32,000 bases of DNA, from contig NZ_LGHJ01000006.1 in assembly GCF_001306055.1 (NCBI RefSeq), positions 104,633-136,632 on the forward strand, given 5' to 3'. The notes under the pieces are model-generated. The model was given only the letters and a program-made list of their open reading frames with translations. It had not been told where the DNA came from and made no database searches. This stretch comes from Bellilinea caldifistulae. GTDB lineage: Bacteria; Chloroflexota; Anaerolineae; Anaerolineales; Anaerolineaceae. Of this stretch, positions 7,165 through 19,456 are shown in pieces. Each line of letters opens with the position of its first letter. The first letter of the stretch is position 1. Position numbers and translations under genes: made by a program.

Positions 7165-7232
7165 CCCCGACGTTTGACTCACCTGCGCCGCGAAGCACAG
7201 CGAGGCGGTGTCAGGGGAAGCGCATGTTGGGC
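7165..7232 (-). repeat. attC site of the terminal cassette (eroded distal half)
   Basis: On the cassette (minus) strand it starts with GCCCAAC (complement of GTTGGGC at 7226-7232), 16 nt after the Ble-like stop. It shares the core TCACCTGCGCCG.GAAGC.CAGCG.GGCGG.GTCAGG with the other attC sites. The distal box reads GTCGGGG instead of GTTRRRY, and the left arm no longer pairs well. Confidence 0.6.
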
Positions 7233-7248
7233 GGCGTTCTTTCAGGAA

Positions 7249-7593
7249 TTAATCATCTTCAAAGAAAAAGAGCCCGTTTCCATCCATATCAAGCGCGACA
7301 AACTCTTTCCTGCCCCAAGACTTTTCTTCTAAAGCCCCGTTTGGATGGATAACCTCTGCTTGCTGGTACTCCTTATACAACACTTCAATATTGTCTACCG
7401 CTATCCTGCAAGCAGTGTTTTCGGCGATATTCTTATCCTGACATTCCCATAAATGAATTTCCACCGAGTCACGCTTCACGGCAGCATAATCGCCATAGTT
7501 GAAAAGCTCCACAAAGCCAAATTTGCTCTTATAAAATTCGACCGAAGCCTTTACATTAGCAGCAGGGAATTTAGGGACAACATATTTAAACAT
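7249..7593 (-). CDS. Bleomycin-binding-protein-like VOC (glyoxalase/bleomycin resistance) family protein
   Basis: This 114-aa protein (...ASVEFYKSKFGFVELFNYGDYAAVKRDSVEIHLWECQD...EEKSWGRKEFVALDMDGNGLFFFEDD) aligns along its length with the Sh ble/BLMA pattern as I recall it (AVEFW...LGF...DDFAGV.RDDV.LF...Q....PWGREFA..DP.GN..HF). An AGGAG RBS lies 7 nt upstream. Confidence 0.75.
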   Translation of the reverse strand: MFKYVVPKFPAANVKASVEFYKSKFGFVELFNYGDYAAVKRDSVEIHLWECQDKNIAENTACRIAVDNIEVLYKEYQQAEVIHPNGALEEKSWGRKEFVALDMDGNGLFFFEDD

Positions 7594-7616
7594 AGTCTGC
7601 TCCTATCTATGAACGC

Positions 7617-8087
7617 CTACAAAATCGGAACACAAAAGTCCATAGTATGCTCGTAGTAGACCTCATAACTGGGACGTTGCGGGTCTACAATCAGTTGATG
7701 TTGTGGCACATACTCCGCAAAGAAACGCCCGATAGTCTCTCCTATCGTATTTGAGTCTTTCTCAAGTGATAGGATTGCATAACGCCCACCTGGTAGTTCT
7801 TTTGTTTGGACACCTTCGGTGTCTCGGGAAATGGACTCAGGAAGTTCTAGTGCGCACTCATAACCAACTAATTGAGCGCCGTTGGTGCGTGGGATGCCAA
7901 TTACCTTTAGGGTTGAAGGGTCGAAGCCGCACCGTTGAGCCCAGTCTTTTATATGTTGAAAACCATCCCGAATTTGTTCGTTATAACTACCCGTCGCTTG
8001 TTGTAGTTGGCAAGACACATAGACGATAAAGGCAGGTGTCAAATCTTGTATAGTAACGTGTAATGGTTGTTCAGTAAAAGTGTTCAT
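7617..8087 (-). CDS. GyrI-like small-molecule-binding domain protein
   Basis: I trimmed this to the ATG at 8087 (MNTFTEQPLHVTIQDL...), which has a GGGAGA RBS. The track's longer ORF (to 8381) runs through an attC site. The fold pattern is GyrI-like/SbmC-type: IGIP......YE.A.E........V....LPGG.YA............I......W........P..E.Y. Confidence 0.7.
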   Translation of the reverse strand: MNTFTEQPLHVTIQDLTPAFIVYVSCQLQQATGSYNEQIRDGFQHIKDWAQRCGFDPSTLKVIGIPRTNGAQLVGYECALELPESISRDTEGVQTKELPGGRYAILSLEKDSNTIGETIGRFFAEYVPQHQLIVDPQRPSYEVYYEHTMDFCVPIL

Positions 8088-8152: not shown

Positions 8153-8221
8153 GCCCAACGAGCGGCGCATCACCTGTGGCGAGCCGCGCAGCGGAGCGTC
8201 CGCTGCAAACGGTTGTTAGGC
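8153..8221 (-). repeat. attC site (DHFR-like cassette)
   Basis: The plus strand reads GCCCAAC (8153-8159) ... GTTAGGC (8215-8221). It contains the shared core CATCACCTGTGGCGAGCCGCGCAGCGGAGCG and begins 6 nt after the stop of the 8227-8865 ORF. Confidence 0.75.
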
Positions 8222-8226
8222 CGCCC

Positions 8227-8865
8227 TCACCGACGCACATAGCGCAAGTGTGTGGCGGCTGGACTATCAAGAACCCTGTCAATGCGAAACTGCGGCAACG
8301 GCTCGCGCAGGTTTTCGAAGAGACGCCGCCCGCCACCGAACAACACGGGGGCCAGGGCGATTTCCAGCTCGTCAACGACACCCAGGTTCAGGTACTGCTG
8401 GATCACATCCGCTCCACCCGCGATACGAATATCACGACTGCCTGCGGATTCCCGAGCCAACTCTAGGGCACGCTCTGGCCCGTCATTGATGAAATAAAAG
8501 GTCGTTCCACCAGGGCGTACCCAGGGATTCCGATTCTCGTGAGTAAGAACGTATACCGGCGTGTGAAACGGAGCCTCCTCTGGCCAACCACGCTCGCCAC
8601 CGTCGAACATTCGCTTGCCCATGATGTTGGCTCCGATACGCTCCGTGGTGGTGCGAAGCAATTCATTGACTGGGCCGGTCTCTCCACCTGGTCCAAGCTT
8701 GAGATTCTCGCGGAAGTACTGTTGATTAAATATCCAGCCCATCAGCGCACCCCACTTGGCGCCCCAGTCCTTGTAGTCTGGGTTGTCCCAGTTCTCCATG
8801 GTCATTCCTTCCGGTGCGATGTAGCCATCGAGACTAAGGCTAATGTTGACGAATACTTTGCTCAT
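8227..8865 (-). CDS. Dihydrofolate-reductase-like protein, RibD C-terminal domain family
   Basis: MSKVFVNISLSLDGYIA...GKRMF........W........PVYVLTH......W......F....G.....L......G..DI.I.GGA...Q.YL..G..DEL.I...PV..G.G..LF is the characteristic RibD_C (PF01872) pattern. The RBS is AGGGAGAA. Confidence 0.8.
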   Translation of the reverse strand: MSKVFVNISLSLDGYIAPEGMTMENWDNPDYKDWGAKWGALMGWIFNQQYFRENLKLGPGGETGPVNELLRTTTERIGANIMGKRMFDGGERGWPEEAPFHTPVYVLTHENRNPWVRPGGTTFYFINDGPERALELARESAGSRDIRIAGGADVIQQYLNLGVVDELEIALAPVLFGGGRRLFENLREPLPQFRIDRVLDSPAATHLRYVRR

Positions 8866-8893: not shown

Positions 8894-8970
<77 letters not shown>

Positions 8971-8997
8971 AACCCGTGGTTCTTTGAAATAAGCCTT

Positions 8998-9561
8998 TCA
9001 AACAATCCTTTCCATTTCCATCTGATCTTGACGATCAGGACGAATCCAGAATAAAGCAATGTTGGCTTCTCTACATAATTCAGCCAATATATCTCGTCGA
9101 ATTCTACCATTCCACTTGCCACTCAGATAGCCACTGCTTTGTGACGTAAATACGAAATCAGCAATAACTTCGGCTCGCCCGTCCTGCAAAATGCCTGAAA
9201 TTTGTTTCAATGATTCTATGTCTTCCGACAAAACGCTTTTAAAGCGACGCCTATGTTGTTGAGGTGAGTGCCCCCAGCGCTGGAAGGCTTTTATCTGAAC
9301 AACAAGTACAGGCTGGACACACCCCGGGGTGGTATTGGCTTGGCCTATGACAAGATCAAACTTGCGCTCTCCCCGAGAAACTCCGCAGAGACGGGTTTCG
9401 CTGTAAATTTCTGAAAGCGGACATCCATTTTCGAGAAGCCGATAGTAAAGATAAGCCGCTACGTCTGCTTCCAGCAAAGGAAAGAACTTCTTCTGATTGA
9501 AAGCATCACACAAGTCTTGTAAAGACCTTTGGAGTAAATCAAAAGCACTCTTAGTATCCAA
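8998..9561 (-). CDS. Hypothetical protein, 187 aa, with a possible PD-(D/E)xK-type nuclease motif arrangement
   Basis: I recognise no family. The start is a TTG at 9561, with GGAG 10 nt upstream and no in-frame ATG available. The motif order is LLEAD (helix), YSETRL (strand), RKFDLVIG (strand with Asp), then VLVVQIKAF (Q-x-K). This resembles the E...D...(E/Q)xK core of PD-(D/E)xK nucleases. The ORF is flanked by attC sites on both sides. Confidence 0.6.
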   Translation of the reverse strand: MDTKSAFDLLQRSLQDLCDAFNQKKFFPLLEADVAAYLYYRLLENGCPLSEIYSETRLCGVSRGERKFDLVIGQANTTPGCVQPVLVVQIKAFQRWGHSPQQHRRRFKSVLSEDIESLKQISGILQDGRAEVIADFVFTSQSSGYLSGKWNGRIRRDILAELCREANIALFWIRPDRQDQMEMERIV

Positions 9562-9593: not shown

Positions 9594-9665
9594 GGCTAAC
9601 GGTTTGCGCTTCACCTGCGCCGTGAAGCGCAGCGGAGCGGCGTCAGGTGGAAGCGCGTGTTAGCC
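9594..9665 (-). repeat. attC site (DpnI-like cassette)
   Basis: GGCTAAC (9594-9600) and GTTAGCC (9659-9665) are exact reverse complements. The inner arm GCGCTTCACCTG pairs with CAGGTG(G)AAGCGC, leaving one extrahelical G. It begins 4 nt after the stop of the 9669-10451 ORF. Confidence 0.8.
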
Positions 9666-9668
9666 CGC

Positions 9669-10451
9669 CTATTGCATAGATCGGTAAATTTTACGATATA
9701 CACCTGGCTTGATAAACTGTATCAAGCCCAAGTCTCTGATAATTTGAAGTTGTTGCCTAATCTTGGCTCGTATGTTTTGGTTAGCGGGATAGGATTTAGC
9801 CAATTCTTTCTCATAAGCGTACACTTGTTGAAGTGTGAACTGTTGGGGTAGTGATTCTACTATCCGTAGGACGAGAGCAACCCATCCCCTTTGGTCCAAG
9901 GTTAGCGTTGACACAGAATGAGCAGTCTGCCATTGCAACCTGACTATTGTTGGTGGGCTTGCTGAACCATTTTGCACCACATCTACAAATGCAGTACATG
10001 GTATAGATTCAAGTGCCAATAAGCACCCTTGCCAACCCGCGCGTCGCGCTTGTGGACCTAAAGGGCGACGAGGAATGATGCTTTGTTCAGTTATCCACGA
10101 CCGATGAAGTATTCTAACCTGTTGAACAGATAGGTTCTTGAGATCATATTGTAGGAGGATCAGGGAAGGATGCCTTCCATTCTTAATTGCTTGGATTGTG
10201 GTATTGTATTCTGCCCCTAGTATCTTCTTCCCAAAAGGTTTTGATTGGCTTTTAAGTTGATAGGTTTCCCCACAAGACTGACACTGAAAATCAGATGTGC
10301 GTGAGTTCGCCGGCAAAAGAGACAATGTCCCGCCACAAGAAGGACATTCAAGATTGTCGGATGCCCACGCTTCCGTAAGAATACGCGCTTTCTGCGACGC
10401 ACTCTTGTAACCTTGTATTTTACTAAGATATCTTGAAAAACCAATATCCAT
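9669..10451 (-). CDS. DpnI-like (Dam-replacing family) methyl-directed type IIM restriction endonuclease
   Basis: YKSASQKARILTEAW, CPSCGG...CQSCGE, RRPLGPQARRAGWQGC and the C-terminal winged-helix tail IRAKIRQQLQIIRDLGLIQFIKPGVYRKI closely match the DpnI sequence as I remember it (SNSQKARILTEDW, CPNCG...CNHC, RKPLAPTARRAGWIGC, IKEKIRQQLQILRDKEIIEF..GKYRKL). Confidence 0.85.
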   Translation of the reverse strand: MDIGFSRYLSKIQGYKSASQKARILTEAWASDNLECPSCGGTLSLLPANSRTSDFQCQSCGETYQLKSQSKPFGKKILGAEYNTTIQAIKNGRHPSLILLQYDLKNLSVQQVRILHRSWITEQSIIPRRPLGPQARRAGWQGCLLALESIPCTAFVDVVQNGSASPPTIVRLQWQTAHSVSTLTLDQRGWVALVLRIVESLPQQFTLQQVYAYEKELAKSYPANQNIRAKIRQQLQIIRDLGLIQFIKPGVYRKIYRSMQ

Positions 10452-10469
10452 AATAACATCTCAAGAGCA

Positions 10470-10486
10470 GGCTAACGGTGTTAGCC
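10470..10486 (-). repeat. Vestigial attC: GGCTAAC-GGT-GTTAGCC (R boxes only; the whole internal part is deleted)
   Basis: The ends are identical to those of the full attC at 9594-9665 (GGCTAACGGT...GTGTTAGCCCGC), but about 55 internal bp are missing. It lies 7 nt after the Mrr stop and 18 nt before the DpnI-like start. Confidence 0.65.
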
Positions 10487-10493
10487 CGCTTTT

Positions 10494-11342
10494 TTATAGC
10501 GAAGCAAACCAATTTTTATCAACCGACACCTTTTCAACCTGGATTTTTTCGGTTTTTACGCCTAAAGCCAACTCTCGCAATTTTTCAACCAACTGATCGC
10601 CATCTATCAAATCAATTGCAGGTGCGCCATCACGGGTGGCTTCCCATACGGCATCTTTGGTAAATGTTCCCGTTGTAACCAGTAAACCTTTATCGGCTCG
10701 TCCAACCATTGCGCCACGAAAATCTCTTACTTGATTTGCCCTTACTGCGCCTTGCCAGCGTTTACACTGAAAAATTACATGAAAACTCAATAAACCACCC
10801 AAGCGCATAATACCACGACCATCTATACCCCCATCTCCACTGCGCCCTGTAACTTCAACTTGAATAAAACCAGATTCTCGTAAAAATCGTTGTATCAGTC
10901 TTTCAAAGGCATCTGGCTCCATTTTCATCAGCGTTTCGAGCAACTCTTCTTGCCAAGTGAGCGTTTTGCTTTCTTCGTCAACTTCAGTGGCTTCTAAACG
11001 TTCTGCCCGTAATTGCCCTCGCACTACTCTGACAACTTCCTTTTCATTTACATCTGTCAGGTTTCTGCCTTCAGGAGTTAATGCCCAAACACCACGACTA
11101 GAATTTTCAAGAATCCCGTACCTTTTCAAATAACTGCGTGTCCATGCTAACCGATATTCAAATTCAGTTTGTCCACCACGTTTTGAATCGTGCAAAATAT
11201 CCAACTGCTCATCTTGCAAGCCTAAAATTTCTGCAACCTTACTGTTGATTTCTTCAACTGTTCCCGATCCACCCAATTTTTTCATCGCTCGGAGTAGGGG
11301 ATTCATCATTTCGTCATAGGTAGGAATATTGTTCTTTGACAT
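10494..11342 (-). CDS. mrr: Mrr-family type IV (modification-dependent) restriction endonuclease
   Basis: The N-terminal winged helix is Mrr_N type (IPTYDEMMNPLLRAMKKLGG..T..EI...VAE.LGL...Q). The C-terminal Mrr_cat core is FE.L...FL...GF..VEVTGRSGDGGIDG.G.........V.FQCKRW...V....VRDF.GAM.....KG..VTTG.F. It is the first cassette next to attI. Confidence 0.85.
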   Translation of the reverse strand: MSKNNIPTYDEMMNPLLRAMKKLGGSGTVEEINSKVAEILGLQDEQLDILHDSKRGGQTEFEYRLAWTRSYLKRYGILENSSRGVWALTPEGRNLTDVNEKEVVRVVRGQLRAERLEATEVDEESKTLTWQEELLETLMKMEPDAFERLIQRFLRESGFIQVEVTGRSGDGGIDGRGIMRLGGLLSFHVIFQCKRWQGAVRANQVRDFRGAMVGRADKGLLVTTGTFTKDAVWEATRDGAPAIDLIDGDQLVEKLRELALGVKTEKIQVEKVSVDKNWFASL

Positions 11343-11540
11343 TGTTGACCTTTGAAACGATTACACAATGGGCGGACTAACGATTATATTATACAGACTT
11401 CTGATACACTGCATTTTTGCCGTATATCTAGACCAATGAAGTGGGTTATACCGCGATTATGCCTGGTTATCTAAGACCCTCCGATTAGAATTATTACTAA
11501 ATAGATTATATTAAACTAGGGAAAAATTTCAACTGTTTTT
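11343..11540 (-). promoter_or_regulatory. attI-like region with the cassette junction core (minus strand GTTAGTC = 11375-11381)
   Basis: This is a strongly AT-rich ~200-bp spacer between the divergent intI remnant and the first cassette. A GTTRRRY-type core lies 33 nt upstream of the Mrr start. The short motif CGATTA recurs at 11381, 11454 and 11482; whether these are recombinase-binding repeats is speculative. Confidence 0.5.
11505..11532 (-). promoter_or_regulatory. Candidate cassette promoter (Pc): TTGAAA-16-TATAAT on the minus strand
   Basis: Read directly: the minus strand has TTGAAA (11532-11527), a 16-nt spacer, then TATAAT (11510-11505). It is oriented toward the cassette array and lies just upstream of the intI remnant ATG. 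Confidence 0.45.
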
Positions 11541-12301
11541 ATGCCTGATCCATCCTCTCCAAGACCCAAAAAACTTCTCGATCTGCTTCGAGATGCCATC
11601 CGGCTGAAATGGGTATCGCTGAGATCGAAGCCTTCCTCACCCATCTGGCGAAAGACGAGCATGTTTCTGCCTCTACTCAAAACCAGGCCTTGAGCGCACT
11701 TATCTTTCTCTACCGTGATGTGCTTGACTTACCCCTCAATTTGACATTTCAGTCAGTTCAGGCGAGGAGGCCAAAACATCTGCCGACGCTAGTTTCGAAG
11801 ACTGAGGTCGAGCGAGTGCTGCGCCAGATGAGCGGAGAAACCCTGCTGATGACCCAGCTTATGGCAGCGGCTGACGTTTGCGGGTGAAAGATGTGGACTT
11901 TGAACAACACCGGATTATGGTGCGTGACCCAAAAGGAAGGCATGATCGCACGACCAGGCTGCCAGTAACCCTTGAGCTGTCCTTGCAAGCTTAACTCCAG
12001 GCGGTGAAACACCTTCATGAGCGCGACCTTGCTTCCGGGCACGGAGAAGTGCCCCTTCCCTCGGTTCTGGGCAGGTGTTCGTACTGTTCAGGAGCTATTA
12101 GGGCATAAGGATGTAAAGACGACCAGGATATATACCCACGCGCTTAATCGCGGAGCCAATGCTGTGCGCAGCCCGCTGGATGAGAGAGGCTGCTTGTTCA
12201 AGCTTGTCCCTGCTCTTGTCTGGAGTTTTAATCCTTGCATGGACTCGGTCGAGCTGTGCCAGATCTTGCTCAAATCGTGCTGCCTAACAAAACTTTTTTG
12301 A
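11541..12301 (+). pseudogene. intI: Integron integrase (IntI-type tyrosine recombinase) pseudogene
   Basis: Fragments lie in three frames: MPDPSSPRPKKLLDLLRDAIRLK; MGIAEIEAFLTHLAKDEHVSASTQNQALSALIFLYRDVL...RRPKHLPTLVSKTEVERVL; [37 protein letters not shown]...*...[18 protein letters not shown]; and [36 protein letters not shown]. There are in-frame stops at 11872-11874 and 11992-11994 and at least three frame changes. The segment between the YLP..L motif and [11 protein letters not shown], which in intact IntI holds the IntI-specific insertion and the box II His/Arg, is absent. Confidence 0.85.
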
Positions 12302-13965: not shown

Positions 13966-14696
13966 TCGAACACCAGCGCCGGGAAGTCCGGCAGGTTGAT
14001 GGTCATTTTGGACGGTTCGGGACTGCCGCACGTTCCCCCAATGCAGTTGCATTTTTCGTCCATCAGGTTGCTGGTGCAGGAGATGGCGGTGTACTCCACC
14101 ACCCAATCCCCTCGTACCGTGGGCGGCATGAAGGCGTAAAAGACTCCTTCCGGGTCGGTCATCGCATCGGTGCGCTGCTGATTGGGTGCTTCGCCCTGGG
14201 TGATCATGAATTGAATGCCGCTGATCGGTTTACCGGTGCGGTCGGCCACCCGCCCCATGACGGTCACCACGTTCTCCGGCTGAATGACCGGCACAGCCCG
14301 TAAATCCACCGGTGATTCAAGCAGTTGGGCAAAAATCCAACCGCTGATGCCCTTATCGTTCTCCACCCGAATCCACTCGCCGCCGGGGGATTTGCCGAGC
14401 ACGGTAAAGACCGTCCCTTTGCGCACACTGGCCTGAACGGCAAACAGATAGCCGGGGTTTGCGCGTACGTTGACCCAATCCACGGCGGTTTTCACCTCAA
14501 AGGGGGCAAACGGTGTGGCCGTCGGCGTGGGGGTGGCGGTGGGCAGGGGGGTGGGTGATGGGGTGAGGGTGGCGGTCGGCGGTGGTGGGCTGGGGGTGAG
14601 CGTGTTGGTCGGCGTGGGGGTGGGTTGCGCCAGCGCGTTGCAGCCGGTCAGCATCAAAATTATGATGAGAATACCAATCCCGAAAAGAGCGCGCAT
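13956..14696 (-). CDS. Lipoprotein with a Pro/Thr-rich linker and an SH3b-like domain
   Basis: I placed the start at the ATG at 14696, which has a GGAGG RBS. The signal peptide plus lipobox is MRALFGIGILIIILMLTGC, followed by a PT linker of about 40 aa, then VDWVNVRANPG....V....KG..F.VLGKS..GEWIRV.......GWIF (bacterial SH3 pattern). Confidence 0.75.
   Translation of the reverse strand: MRALFGIGILIIILMLTGCNALAQPTPTPTNTLTPSPPPPTATLTPSPTPLPTATPTPTATPFAPFEVKTAVDWVNVRANPGYLFAVQASVRKGTVFTVLGKSPGGEWIRVENDKGISGWIFAQLLESPVDLRAVPVIQPENVVTVMGRVADRTGKPISGIQFMITQGEAPNQQRTDAMTDPEGVFYAFMPPTVRGDWVVEYTAISCTSNLMDEKCNCIGGTCGSPEPSKMTINLPDFPALVFEWK
14529..14634. repeat. Low-complexity G-run tract (plus strand) encoding the Pro/Thr linker
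   Basis: Repeated GGGGG/GGGG/GGG runs separated by 1-7 nt (gtgggggtggcggtgggcaggggggtgggtgatggggtgagggtgg...), corresponding to ACC/CCC/CCA codons on the coding strand. Confidence 0.6.
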
Positions 14697-17825: not shown

Positions 17826-18596
17826 TCACAGGTGCAGGCAGGCCTGCACCGCCAGCCAGAAGATGCGTTCGCGGTCATCGGCGCGTTTGTGCCAGGCGCG
17901 GCTGTCCCAGCCCTCCGGCACGACCAGGTCGCCGCCATAGACCAGCTCCCCAAAGGTGACGCCGCGAAATTGAGCCACTGCGAAGAAAGCCGCCGCTTCC
18001 ATCTCCACCACCTGACAGCCTTCGGCCAGCCGTGTGGCACGGCGGTTTACGGTTTCGCGGTAGATGCCGTCGGTTGTCCATGCTTTGGCGAGGGTGTAGG
18101 GCATGCCCGCCGATTTGAGAGCGGCTTGCAGGGCGGCCACGGCTGCCGGGCTGGCACTGACTTCCCGGCCGGGGGGCAGATAATGATATGAAACGCCCTC
18201 GTCCCGCACCGCCCCTGTCAAAATTAGCGGGTGACCGGCGTTGATCGAGTGGTCAATTACCCCGCATCCGCCAGCCGCAATAAAACGGTTGACGCCAAGG
18301 GCGATGATCTCTTCCAGAAAACCGGCTGAAAGCGGGGCGCCCACCCCCGGATGAGCCACCAGCAAATTCTGGCCATTCTCTTCCAGGATGTACAACGGGT
18401 TCGGGCCGATTTCCGACTTCAACCGCCCGATGACCTTCAGCCGGCCTTTACGGCGCAGACGGTTGATCACATCCTGAAAAAAGCACAGCACGGCACGGGG
18501 CGGAGCGGGTTGAGTCAACTTGACCGGCCGGGGTTCCAAAATGGCGCGTTCAGCCGGGTCAAATTCCAGCAGCGGAACAGTTTGATTGGGGTTCAT
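17826..18596 (-). CDS. Nucleoside phosphorylase family protein (PNP_UDP_1 fold, uridine-phosphorylase-like)
   Basis: ...VAHPGVGAPLSAGFLEEIIALGVNRFIAAGGCG...GAVRDEGVSYHY.........W.TD..YRET.......L..G...VEMEAAA.FAVA is the PNP/UDP phosphorylase core pattern. Its start overlaps the stop of the upstream methyltransferase (ATGA). Confidence 0.75.
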   Translation of the reverse strand: MNPNQTVPLLEFDPAERAILEPRPVKLTQPAPPRAVLCFFQDVINRLRRKGRLKVIGRLKSEIGPNPLYILEENGQNLLVAHPGVGAPLSAGFLEEIIALGVNRFIAAGGCGVIDHSINAGHPLILTGAVRDEGVSYHYLPPGREVSASPAAVAALQAALKSAGMPYTLAKAWTTDGIYRETVNRRATRLAEGCQVVEMEAAAFFAVAQFRGVTFGELVYGGDLVVPEGWDSRAWHKRADDRERIFWLAVQACLHL

Positions 18597-19456
18597 GGGT
18601 TCTCCGTGGGGGATAAATCACAATTGATCCATTCGATTTCTTCGACACCCGCAAAACGCTGCTGCATGATGGCAATTGCCTGCGGGTTGTTATCTATTAA
18701 GATGAACCGCCGCCCCAGTTCCAGAGCCGCCGCCCCGGTCGTGCCGCTGCCGGCAAAAAAATCCAGCACCAGCCCGCCGGGTGTGGAAGAAGCCTGAAGG
18801 ATACGCCGCAGGATGCCGAGCGGTTTTTGGGTGGGGTAGCCGGTTTTTTCTTTGCTGTTGGTGGGGACGATGGTGTGCCACCACGTATCGGTGGGCAGTT
18901 TGCCGCGGGCGGCTTTTTCAGCGCCCACCAGTCCCGGCGCCATGTAGGGGATGCGTTCGATTAGATCGGTGTTGAAAATGTAGTTGTGCGGGTCGCGCGC
19001 GTACCAGAGGATGTTATCGTGCTTTGGCGGCCATTTGCGGCGGGTGCGTCCGCCATAATCGTAAGCCCAGATGATTTCATTGAGAAAGCATTCCCGTCCG
19101 AAAATCTGATCGAGCAGTACTTTGCAGTAATGCACCTCGCGGTAGTCAATGTGAAAGTACAAACTGCCGTTGGGCTGCAACAGGCGGTGAGCTTCGCGCA
19201 GGCGGGGTTCCAGAAAGGCCAGGTAATCATCGAAAATATCGGCGTAGGAATGCGAGCCAAGCCGCACGGTGCGGTAGCGCCGGCCGCCAAACCCGACCCG
19301 GTCACCGCCGCCGTCGCTGTGCGTGCGCAGGCGGACGCGCTGCTGCACCCGTCCGGTATTGAAGGGCGGATCAATGTAAATCAATTCCACACTGCCCGAG
19401 GGCAGGGATTGCAATATCGGCAGGTTGTCTCCAAAGTAGATGCGATGGGTGGACAT
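18593..19456 (-). CDS. Site-specific DNA methyltransferase, beta-class N6A/N4C amino-methyltransferase (orphan; no adjacent endonuclease)
   Basis: Motif IV IYIDPPFN is N-terminal, and motif I VLDFFAGSGTTGAAA is C-terminal, preceded by YPTQKP. This is the circular permutation typical of beta-class (PF01555) enzymes. Confidence 0.85.
   Translation of the reverse strand: MSTHRIYFGDNLPILQSLPSGSVELIYIDPPFNTGRVQQRVRLRTHSDGGGDRVGFGGRRYRTVRLGSHSYADIFDDYLAFLEPRLREAHRLLQPNGSLYFHIDYREVHYCKVLLDQIFGRECFLNEIIWAYDYGGRTRRKWPPKHDNILWYARDPHNYIFNTDLIERIPYMAPGLVGAEKAARGKLPTDTWWHTIVPTNSKEKTGYPTQKPLGILRRILQASSTPGGLVLDFFAGSGTTGAAALELGRRFILIDNNPQAIAIMQQRFAGVEEIEWINCDLSPTENP

What the first reader, a model, noticed from the sequence alone, without database searches (positions are those of the whole stretch)
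9669..11342. Two methyltransferase-less, modification-dependent restriction enzymes (Mrr and DpnI-like) occupy the attI-proximal, best-expressed positions
Seen in sequence: cassette 1 has the Mrr_N winged helix plus the Mrr_cat core (GDGGIDG...FQCKRW). Cassette 2 matches DpnI along its whole length, including the C-terminal winged helix. Neither has a partner methyltransferase.

Established knowledge: Mrr and DpnI cut only modified DNA (m6A/m5C, and Gm6ATC respectively). They therefore function as single genes, which suits the size limit of integron cassettes. Cassettes nearest Pc are the most strongly expressed.

Inference: the integron works, or once worked, as a store of type IV/IIM restriction directed against phages or plasmids carrying Dam-type or other methylation. 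A consequence is that the host genome should be free of Gm6ATC, even though GATC sites are common in the surrounding core genes.
Basis: partly seen in the sequence, partly recalled or inferred. Interest (0 to 1): 0.65.

Follow-up and report, generated by a model that had tools for sequence, protein, structure and literature searches.

The report
Two methyl-DNA-cutting genes in a dead integron
The first two genes of a decayed chromosomal integron in the anaerobic bacterium Bellilinea caldifistulae do encode single-gene enzymes predicted to cut only methylated foreign DNA, which adds one more example to the already published finding that integrons store small anti-phage defences.

Summary
ORF 10494..11342(-) is an Mrr_N + Mrr_cat protein. 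ORF 9669..10451(-) matches DpnI end to end, including the winged helix. No methyltransferase lies in the cassette array.

Four points change the picture:
- The window comes from Bellilinea caldifistulae GOMI-1 (Chloroflexota). Its integron is a fossil. intI has two frameshifts, a stop codon and a deletion of about 74 residues. Two of the four full attC sites no longer fold.
- The two genes are no longer separate cassettes. The Mrr attC is reduced to a 23-nt stub, so they now form one fused two-gene unit. Each gene occurs alone in other arrays with its own attC.
- The DpnI-like protein keeps every Gm6ATC and methyl contact residue and the Zn site. Its catalytic E64 is replaced by Gln (D54..Q65-L-K67). 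About half of the DpnI family has Gln there, so this is a natural variant, not decay. No Gln-type member has been assayed, as far as I found.
- An orphan beta-class N6/N4 DNA methyltransferase sits 7 kb away among core genes. Its specificity is unknown.

I could not test whether the host lacks Gm6ATC. Type II and IV restriction genes in integron cassettes are already published. Verdict: new member of a known kind, modest interest.

The parts
10494..11342 (-). Mrr-like type IV restriction gene (282 aa). N-terminal Mrr_N winged helix and C-terminal Mrr_cat with D153...Q183-C-K185. First gene after attI.
   Evidence: Pfam and PADLOC matches. The motif aligns with MspJI D..QxK. It is conserved in at least 118/120 homologues. 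dN/dS is about 0.05 against L011 and L007.
9669..10451 (-). DpnI-like type IIM restriction gene (260 aa). PD-(D/E)XK catalytic domain with a Cys4 Zn site, plus a C-terminal winged helix. The catalytic motif is D54...Q65-L-K67.
   Evidence: Pfam, PADLOC and PDB 4esj matches. Residue mapping. 36% identity to DpnI.
10467..10489 (-). attC stub GCGGGCTAACACCGTTAGCCTGC between the two genes. It is the 5' end of the Mrr cassette's attC joined directly to the 5' end of the DpnI cassette. The central ~100 nt are deleted.
   Evidence: Compared with the full ~130-nt attC after Mrr in L011 and with the DpnI cassette start GTTAGCCCGCTC in L003, L004, L005 and L015. It forms only a 7-bp hairpin. The junction is identical in the independent Logan assembly L002.
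11374..11413 (-). attI core and crossover point (…TGCAGTGTATCAGAAGTCTGTATAATATAATC G|TTAGTCC), the start of the first cassette.
   Evidence: Homologous to the attI-like region of L011, which ends at GTTGGGCGG, the start of the GyrI cassette.
11505..11532 (-). Promoter-like site TTGAAA-16-TATAAT (11/12 matches) facing the cassettes. Candidate Pc.
   Evidence: Consensus scan. The number of sites in the region is not above the shuffled expectation, so this is a candidate only.
11541..12301 (+). Integron integrase pseudogene, in pieces across frames, with an in-frame stop and an internal deletion of about 74 residues (box II region).
   Evidence: Three-frame translation. TIGR02249 integrase_gron hits to profile positions 41-125, 137-203 and 278-314 only.
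9594..9666 (-). Canonical attC of the DpnI-like cassette (R'' GGCTAAC ... R' GTTAGCC).
   Evidence: The bottom strand folds at -26.7 kcal/mol, z = -5.7. The same attC follows the gene in L005 and L015.
8998..9561 (-). Next cassette: a 187-aa orphan protein. It may be a third PD-(D/E)XK-type protein (weak evidence).
   Evidence: No Pfam, NCBIfam, PADLOC or PHROG hit. 21 homologues share invariant E31, D33, D69 and K91. AF2 pLDDT 94. No PDB match. Weak BFVD hits to PD-(D/E)XK nucleases.
8894..8971 (-). Canonical attC of the 187-aa cassette.
   Evidence: Folds at -21.8 kcal/mol, z = -3.2.
8153..8222 (-). Degenerate, apparently chimeric attC after the RibD_C cassette (8227..8865).
   Evidence: Folds no better than shuffles, z = -0.9. 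The sequence halves resemble two different attC types.
7165..7233 (-). Decayed terminal attC (R' reads GTCGGGG) after the two-gene GyrI-like + bleomycin-binding-like cassette (7249..8087).
   Evidence: Fold z = 0.05. The intact version of the same attC is in L011.
18593..19456 (-). Orphan beta-class N6/N4 DNA methyltransferase in the core genome. It is not part of the integron but bears on self-restriction.
   Evidence: Pfam N6_N4_Mtase. Best solved relative is M.RsrI at 2.3e-28; DpnA matches only at the C-terminus at 3e-11. Below the cut-offs for YhdJ and CcrM. PADLOC MTase_II at 1e-142.

Best explanation
The locus is a fossil chromosomal integron in Bellilinea caldifistulae GOMI-1. It lies next to holB and has about 47% G+C, against about 57-61% in the flanking core DNA. 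Its first two genes were captured as independent cassettes from a pool shared among Chloroflexota and other anaerobic-digester or hot-spring lineages. Loss of the intervening attC then welded them into one bicistronic unit just downstream of attI.

Gene 1 is an Mrr-type type IV enzyme. By analogy with E. coli Mrr, its N-terminal winged helix binds modified DNA and its D..QxK nuclease domain cuts it.

Gene 2 is a DpnI-type enzyme. Its catalytic domain and its C-terminal winged helix each read fully methylated Gm6ATC, through R128, L131, R137, W140, G142 and K230/R232. D54, Q65, K67 and E27 form the active site.

Together they would degrade incoming phage or plasmid DNA that carries Dam-type or other foreign methylation. 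No protective methyltransferase is needed, because the host's own DNA lacks those marks.

Shown here: domain architecture, residue conservation, cassette status, attC deletion, dead integrase, purifying selection. Inferred: expression from the attI-side promoter, nuclease activity of the Gln variant, target modifications of the Mrr-like enzyme, and absence of Gm6ATC in the host.
For: - Domain matches.
- All DpnI residues that contact GATC bases or the two methyl groups (listed in PMC4117772) are conserved in the window protein and in 116-120 of its 120 closest homologues. N48 is the exception: 81/120, and conserved here. The Zn cysteines and E25, D53 and K66 are also kept.
- Gln at the E64 position is invariant in the 120 closest homologues and present in 78 of 151 family representatives. 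It is therefore a selected state. D..QxK is also the native active motif of Mrr and MspJI nucleases (alignment; 'Mrr catalytic domain (PD-QXK)' in PMC11037411).
- Purifying selection: Mrr dN/dS 0.035-0.056 at dS 0.7-1.0; DpnI-like 0.235 at dS 0.10.
- Cassette status: the DpnI-like gene has identical cassette boundaries in six other loci. Mrr has its own attC in L011/L012. The two genes are never together elsewhere.
- No methyltransferase lies next to Mrr in three different contexts.
- A promoter-like site faces the cassettes.
[quoted passage not shown] Characterised DpnI-family enzymes are toxic in Dam+ cells.
Against: - No member of the Gln-type half of the DpnI family has been assayed, as far as I could find. 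E64A essentially abolishes DpnI activity, and E64Q was not tested.
- The characterised relatives FcyTI and Psp4BI are about 58% identical to DpnI, whereas this protein is 36% identical.
- The integron is decaying, so these genes could be silent passengers. A 92%-identical copy of the DpnI cassette is a pseudogene in a Nitrospiraceae MAG.
- Promoter-like sites in the region are no more frequent than in shuffled sequence.
- Nothing here shows what the Mrr-like enzyme recognises. The host has an N6/N4 methyltransferase of unknown specificity 7 kb away.
Confidence: 0.6

Rival explanations
1. The two genes are silent or nearly silent relics of a dead integron. They are still intact because the decay is recent, and they provide no current defence to the host.
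For: intI is a pseudogene. Two attC sites are degenerate and one is deleted. The promoter call is a consensus match only. A related DpnI cassette is already pseudogenised elsewhere.
Against: Both ORFs are full-length with every conserved residue intact, while the adjacent intI has accumulated several lesions. That contrast suggests selection is maintaining the two genes. An Mrr orthologue that lost its attC is kept intact at a fixed chromosomal site in another Anaerolineaceae lineage found in many samples.
Confidence: 0.2
2. The Gln-type DpnI-like protein is not a double-strand endonuclease. It may be a Gm6ATC-binding protein or a weak nickase. The Glu-to-Gln change would lower metal binding, as in engineered Glu-to-Gln mutants of other PD-(D/E)XK enzymes. 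The protein would then act as a methylation sensor or blocker rather than a restriction enzyme.
For: The canonical metal-binding Glu is absent. E64A essentially abolishes DpnI activity. No nearby acidic residue co-varies with Gln to compensate: the E61 versus Q64 association has Fisher p = 0.74.
Against: Gln is strictly conserved together with D, K, E27 and the Zn site, across a clade that makes up about half of the family. Natural D..QxK active sites cleave DNA in the Mrr and MspJI family and, from my own knowledge, in HinP1I. PADLOC's type IIM model matches end to end.
Confidence: 0.12
3. The pair serves mainly to guard the host epigenome rather than to stop phage. It would kill or cure cells that acquire a foreign methyltransferase or restriction-modification system (for example a DpnII/MboI-type GATC system). 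This is the 'conflict with epigenetic systems' model for methyl-specific nucleases.
For: The concept is reviewed in PMC2993543 (listed). DpnI-family enzymes are lethal in Dam+ cells. In other arrays cassettes carry methyltransferase plus REase systems right beside this gene (L003), so such systems circulate in the same pool.
Against: This model is not exclusive of anti-phage defence. No data here separate the two. It is the same molecular mechanism with a different selective agent.
Confidence: 0.08

Closest known systems
R.DpnI (Streptococcus pneumoniae; PDB 4esj/4kyw) and the PD-(D/E)XK-wH type IIM family (FcyTI, Psp4BI; Pfam PF06044 + PF17726, 'Dam-replacing family')
   Same: The two-domain architecture is the same over the whole length. 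The Cys4 Zn site is kept, as are E25, D53 and K66. All Gm6ATC base and methyl contacts are kept (Q18, N48, R126, L129, R135, W138, G140), and so are the winged-helix residues K229 and R231. The gene is solitary, with no methyltransferase.
   Different: Identity to DpnI is only 36%. Catalytic E64 is Gln (D-X10-Q-X-K). The gene is carried as an integron cassette. No biochemistry exists for this Gln-type clade.
E. coli Mrr / Mrr-type type IV restriction enzymes (Pfam Mrr_N + Mrr_cat; catalytic domain related to MspJI and AspBHI)
   Same: An N-terminal winged helix and a C-terminal D..QxK nuclease domain. A single gene with no methyltransferase partner in three genomic contexts.
   Different: It belongs to a compact 282-aa clade that is about 70% identical across several phyla. 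Its modification specificity is unknown. The Mrr_N profile shows no specific similarity to the m6A-reading winged helix of DpnI (hhalign probability 1.8%).
Defence cassettes of sedentary chromosomal and mobile integrons (Darracq et al., bioRxiv 10.1101/2024.07.02.601686; Kieffer et al., bioRxiv 10.1101/2024.07.02.601719)
   Same: Small single-gene or two-gene defence functions held as attC-bounded cassettes. Small restriction systems (type II and IV) are reported as the more prevalent kind, and position near attI matters for protection.
   Different: The host is a thermophilic anaerobic Chloroflexota, not Vibrio or Enterobacteria. The platform is dead (pseudo-intI). The two nucleases have been fused into one unit by attC loss.
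Fused gene cassettes of class 1 integrons (cassette pairs that lost the intervening attC/59-be)
   Same: Two formerly independent cassettes are joined after deletion of most of the attC between them, so that they can only move together (my own knowledge of the phenomenon; sequence evidence).
   Different: Here the fused genes are two modification-dependent nucleases rather than resistance genes. The deletion end-points fall at a short CCGTT direct repeat inside the attC.

Membership tests
DpnI family (type IIM, PD-(D/E)XK + winged helix) | Full-length match to the DpnI catalytic domain (PF06044) and the DpnI_C winged helix (PF17726) | tested here: met
   E 2.2e-55 (profile 8-181/183) and 3.1e-28 (1-70/70). 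PDB 4esj at 2.5e-48 over residues 9-255.
DpnI family (type IIM, PD-(D/E)XK + winged helix) | Catalytic residues E25, D53, E64, K66 (numbering and mutagenesis from PMC3424567) | tested here: inconclusive
   E27, D54 and K67 are present, but E64 is Q65. Gln is invariant in the 120 closest homologues and present in 78 of 151 family representatives. The strict motif is therefore not met, but the family itself is dimorphic at this position.
DpnI family (type IIM, PD-(D/E)XK + winged helix) | Cys4 zinc site | tested here: met
   C36, C39, C57 and C60 align with C34, C37, C56 and C59.
DpnI family (type IIM, PD-(D/E)XK + winged helix) | Residues that read Gm6ATC and the methyl pair (Q18, N48, R126, L129, R135, W138, G140; winged-helix K229, R231; from PMC4117772) | tested here: met
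   All are conserved: Q20, N49, R128, L131, R137, W140, G142, K230, R232.
DpnI family (type IIM, PD-(D/E)XK + winged helix) | Cleaves GATC only when the adenines are methylated | not testable with these tools
   Requires enzyme assays or Dam+/dam- transformation tests.
Mrr-type type IV restriction enzyme | N-terminal Mrr_N winged helix plus C-terminal Mrr_cat domain | tested here: met
   Pfam E 2.3e-23 and 9.7e-30. PADLOC mREase_IV at 1.4e-32.
Mrr-type type IV restriction enzyme | Catalytic D...QxK motif | tested here: met
   GDGGID(153)G ... FQ(183)CK(185) aligns with the MspJI SGDGGVD ... GQAK motif. It is conserved in at least 118/120 homologues.
Mrr-type type IV restriction enzyme | No cognate methyltransferase | tested here: met
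   None is adjacent in the window, in L011/L012 or in L006-L010.
Mrr-type type IV restriction enzyme | Cleavage depends on m6A/m5C modification | not testable with these tools
   Needs in vivo restriction assays against methyltransferase-expressing plasmids.
Functional integron | Intact integron integrase gene | tested here: not met
   The fragments lie in three frames, there is an in-frame stop, and profile positions ~204-277 are missing.
Functional integron | attI site with a G|TT crossover next to the first cassette | tested here: met
   GTTAGTCC at 11374..11381. The preceding ~90 nt are homologous to the attI-like region of L011.
Functional integron | Each cassette ends in a foldable attC (R''/L''...L'/R') | tested here: not met
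   Only two of five boundaries are canonical (z = -5.7 and -3.2). Two are degenerate (z = -0.9 and 0.05). One is a 23-nt stub.
Integron gene cassette (each nuclease gene) | The same gene is found in other arrays with the same cassette boundaries | tested here: met
   The DpnI-like gene occurs in L003, L004, L005, L013, L014 and L015. Mrr occurs in L011/L012 with a full attC.

The most novel reading that the evidence does not exclude
Loss of the attC may not be incidental decay. It could have created a selected composite cassette that stacks two complementary methylation-dependent nucleases, a broad Mrr type and a Gm6ATC-specific DpnI type. The pair would be co-transcribed without an intervening hairpin, possibly together with a third, uncharacterised PD-(D/E)XK-like cassette product (the 187-aa ORF). 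In addition, the Gln-type half of the DpnI family, never assayed, might have distinct catalytic behaviour, for example different metal dependence, nicking, or hemimethylated-site preference.
Probability: 0.15. Interest if true: 0.5.

Novelty: new member of a known kind. Interest (0 to 1): 0.3.

Why it matters
- It extends the 'integrons as defence biobanks' picture, established mainly in Vibrio and clinical integrons, to a cultured thermophilic anaerobic Chloroflexota.
- It shows a cassette pool shared with Nitrospirota- and Kapaibacteria-binned contigs.
- It provides a clean example of cassette fusion by attC deletion.
- It flags that about half of the DpnI family carries Gln in place of the catalytic Glu and has not been assayed. 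That is a cheap, well-defined biochemical question, and the answer could be useful for Gm6ATC-specific reagents from thermophiles.
- It does not change current understanding of how such enzymes or integrons work.

Tried and rejected
- **Catalytic decay of the DpnI-like gene.** Rejected. Gln65 is invariant in the clade and common across the family.
- **Migration of the acidic residue to position -3 (E62) as compensation.** Not supported. E61 shows no covariation with Q64 (Fisher p = 0.74).
- **The Mrr_N winged helix as a DpnI_C-type m6A reader.** hhalign probability 1.8%, so there is no support.
- **The 187-aa cassette ORF as a clear third nuclease.** Only weak evidence. There is no PDB fold match. 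BFVD gives weak PD-(D/E)XK hits.
- **The 187-aa ORF as the homologue of the ORF after Mrr in L011.** This would have implied that DpnI inserted between them. Rejected, because the two ORFs show no similarity.
- **The nearby methyltransferase as a Dam or DpnA equivalent.** No support. The best relatives are M.RsrI, YhdJ and CcrM types. The specificity stays unknown.
- **Searching the host genome for Dam.** Not possible. The one genome-contig scan returned only three other loci and not the host.
- **GATC counts in the window.** Observed/expected is about 1.15-1.27 in core DNA. This is uninformative about methylation.
- **Phage carriage.** There are no close relatives of the DpnI-like gene in viral contigs and only one 55% Mrr relative.
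- **Assembly artefact at the Mrr/DpnI junction.** Rejected. The junction is identical in the GenBank scaffold and in an independent Logan assembly.
Full report
**1. What is there**

The finding covers two adjacent minus-strand ORFs. ORF 10494..11342 (282 aa) matches Pfam Mrr_N (E 2.3e-23) and Mrr_cat (E 9.7e-30). It also matches PADLOC's type IV methyl-directed REase model at 1.4e-32. They align with the D..QxK active site of MspJI. They are conserved in at least 118 of the 120 closest homologues.

ORF 9669..10451 (260 aa) matches Pfam DpnI (E 2.2e-55) and DpnI_C (E 3.1e-28) over essentially the whole of both profiles. It matches PADLOC mREase_II at 1.8e-62 over 3-255/256 and the crystal-structure sequence of R.DpnI (4esj) at 2.5e-48 over residues 9-255.

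**2. Source and context**

The exact proteins are encoded on scaffold DF967971.1 of assembly GCA_001050215.2. That scaffold is 3,698,317 bp long. This is Bellilinea caldifistulae GOMI-1, a thermophilic, strictly anaerobic filamentous Chloroflexota (PMC4574363; PMC10937449).

The two genes lead a same-strand array:
- Mrr-like;
- DpnI-like;
- a 187-aa orphan;
- a RibD_C-domain protein;
- a GyrI-like/Cass2 protein followed by a bleomycin-binding-like protein.

The array has 47% G+C. The first three genes have 43-45%, against about 57-61% in the flanking core DNA. It lies between holB and a PEP_hydrolase/UPF0261 pair.

**3. The integron is a fossil**

The divergent integrase (11541..12301, plus strand) survives only as pieces. 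TIGR02249 'integron integrase' profile positions 41-125, 137-203 and 278-314 are found in different reading frames. There is an in-frame stop, and positions ~204-277 are missing.

attI is recognisable. The ~90 nt before the crossover G|TTAGTCC (11374..11381) are homologous to the attI-like region of an independent Chloroflexota locus, L011.

Of the attC sites, those after the DpnI-like gene (9594..9666) and after the 187-aa gene (8894..8971) fold as canonical imperfect hairpins (-26.7 and -21.8 kcal/mol; z = -5.7 and -3.2). The site after RibD_C looks like a chimera of two attC types. The terminal site has lost its GTT. Neither of these two folds better than shuffled sequence. So 'once worked' is right and 'works' is not.

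**4. The two nucleases are now one fused cassette**

In L011/L012 the 94%-identical Mrr gene is followed by a full ~130-nt attC, GCAGGCTAACACCGTTTGCAGCGG…CAACCGTT|GGGCGG. In L003, L004, L005 and L015 the DpnI-like cassette starts G|TTAGCCCGCTC…; L013 and L014 carry variant forms of that start. In all six loci the gene ends in its own attC.

In the window the intergenic 42 nt read GCGGGCTAACACCGTT|AGCCTGCTCTTGAG…. That is the first ~16 nt of the Mrr attC joined directly to the first bases of the DpnI cassette.

The simplest reading, which is an inference, is a deletion of the attC body between two short CCGTT direct repeats. The hairpin could have favoured such a deletion. The remaining 7-bp stem cannot be a recombination site.

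The same junction is present in the GenBank scaffold and in an independent Logan assembly, L002, so it is not an assembly error. Their pairing therefore arose here by successive capture and then fusion.

**5. Careful alignment of the DpnI-like protein**

PMC3424567 shows that D53, E64 and K66 (with E25) form the DpnI active site. D53A, E64A and K66A essentially abolish activity, and four cysteines bind Zn. PMC4117772 lists the Gm6ATC readers: Q18, N48, R126, L129, R135, W138 and G140, plus K229/R231 in the winged helix.

Mapping these onto the window protein gives the following:
- E27, D54 and K67 are present.
- All four cysteines are present.
- Every reader residue is conserved (Q20, N49, R128, L131, R137, W140, G142, K230, R232).
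- E64 is replaced by Q65.

Gln is invariant in the 120 closest homologues. In an exhaustive search of 50%-clustered representatives, the column splits Q 78: E 68 among the top 151. So D-X10-(E/Q)-X-K is a natural dimorphism of the family.

D..QxK is also the native active motif of the Mrr and MspJI nucleases. The experimentally characterised relatives FcyTI and Psp4BI are about 58% identical to DpnI. The window protein is 36% identical. I found no assay of a Gln-type member. My conclusion is that Gm6ATC specificity is strongly predicted, while catalytic competence is likely but inferred.

**6. Selection and mobility**

- Mrr has dN/dS 0.035-0.056 at dS 0.7-1.0 between the window, L011 and L007. 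The DpnI-like gene has dN/dS 0.235 at dS 0.10 against L003.
- The Mrr clade is about 70% identical across contigs attributed to Chloroflexota, KSB1, Tectomicrobia and Competibacteraceae.
- In one widely sampled Anaerolineaceae lineage, Mrr sits alone between ruvC and a SIS-domain gene with no attC, which looks like a domesticated cassette.
- The DpnI-like cassette appears in contigs binned as Thermanaerothrix, Nitrospiraceae and Kapaibacterium.
- In the Nitrospiraceae contig it is a pseudogene, with a TAG straight after QLKS and a 1-nt deletion.
- Close relatives are essentially absent from viral contigs.

**7. Methyltransferases and the Gm6ATC prediction**

No methyltransferase lies in the array. 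The one DNA methyltransferase in the window (18593..19456, minus strand) is a beta-class N6/N4 enzyme among core genes. Its best relatives are M.RsrI (2.3e-28), the YhdJ-like PRK11524 model and CcrM, the last two below their family cut-offs. DpnA matches only the C-terminal SAM-binding part. Its specificity cannot be called.

I could not search the rest of the genome for Dam. GATC frequency in the window (observed/expected about 1.2) says nothing about methylation. The prediction that the host lacks Gm6ATC therefore rests on precedent: fewer than 100 potential conflicts for more than 1,000 winged-helix fusion nucleases (PMC11037411).

**8. Expression**

A near-consensus TTGAAA-16-TATAAT site lies at 11532..11505 on the cassette strand, about 160 nt upstream of the Mrr start. 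The attC stub is not followed by a T-run on the coding strand, so it looks terminator-like only on the opposite strand. Co-transcription of both genes is therefore plausible but not shown.

**9. Comparison with what is known, and verdict**

Darracq et al. report that integron cassettes encode many defence systems. [quoted passage not shown] Kieffer et al. show the same principle for mobile integrons. Ghaly et al. found restriction functions enriched in cassette metagenomes.

What is specific to this locus is the Chloroflexota host, the dead platform, the attC-deletion fusion of two methylation-dependent nucleases, and membership of the unassayed Gln-type branch of the DpnI family.

I rate it a new member of a known kind, with interest 0.3.

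Noticed in passing
window 8998..9561 (-): The third cassette encodes a 187-aa protein with no Pfam, NCBIfam, PADLOC or PHROG hit. It has 21 homologues, most of them unnamed metagenomic sequences, with invariant E31, D33, D69 and K91 and a (Q/E)-x-K motif. The AF2 model is very confident (pLDDT 94.4) but has no significant PDB fold match. Weak BFVD matches are enriched in PD-(D/E)XK nucleases. It may be a third nuclease-type defence cassette.
   Followed up: partly
window 8153..8222 (-) and 7165..7233 (-): The attC after the RibD_C cassette looks like a chimera. Its 5' half resembles the L011 Mrr attC and its 3' half resembles the L003 DpnI attC. This suggests that a deletion removed at least one former cassette. 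The terminal attC has GTC in place of the GTT crossover triplet. Neither site folds better than shuffles.
   Followed up: partly
window 7249..8087 (-); L011 7048..7881; L012 452..1285: A GyrI-like/Cass2 gene and a bleomycin-binding-like (glyoxalase-fold) gene, 23 nt apart with no attC between them, form a conserved two-gene cassette. It is 90-92% identical at the protein level in another Chloroflexota array, where it is the first cassette.
   Followed up: partly
window 18593..19456 (-): An orphan beta-class N6/N4 DNA methyltransferase (motif IDPPF, then FAGSGTTG) lies among core genes 7 kb from the integron. Its specificity is unknown. It matters for self-restriction by the Mrr-like enzyme.
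   Followed up: partly
window 14537..14607: Compared with GenBank scaffold DF967971.1, the window carries an extra 87-nt repeat copy in the Pro/Thr-rich linker of an SH3-domain protein. The two sequences are otherwise 100% identical over 20 kb. This is either an assembly-version difference or repeat-length variation.
   Followed up: partly
L015 6001..6782: In a Nitrospiraceae-binned contig the same DpnI-like cassette (92% in the best segment) is the first cassette after an attI-like GTTAGCC. It is inactivated by a stop codon straight after the QLKS catalytic strand and by a 1-nt deletion. This may reflect a conflict with host methylation.
   Followed up: partly
L003 1166..4310: A related integron has its integrase split into two ORFs. 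Its first cassette carries an N6_N4 methyltransferase plus a Bpu10I-like endonuclease that is itself split into two ORFs. That cassette lies immediately before the 95%-identical DpnI-like cassette.
   Followed up: no
L006-L010, 8001..8849: A 92%-identical Mrr gene sits alone between ruvC and a SIS-domain gene in an Anaerolineaceae lineage indexed in 217 blocks of the contig collection. The cassette's 5' leader is retained but the attC is lost. This appears to be a domesticated cassette.
   Followed up: partly
L005 50..8704: An 88%-identical DpnI-like cassette with a canonical attC lies a few kb from phage-like genes (a GP88-family gene and a GpA-type terminase ATPase) on a metagenomic contig.
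   Followed up: no
L011 6790..6990: L011 keeps an attI region homologous to the window's but has no integrase gene at all upstream. The neighbour is an OB_ChsH2_C gene. Related arrays therefore persist at different chromosomal sites after complete loss of intI.
   Followed up: partly
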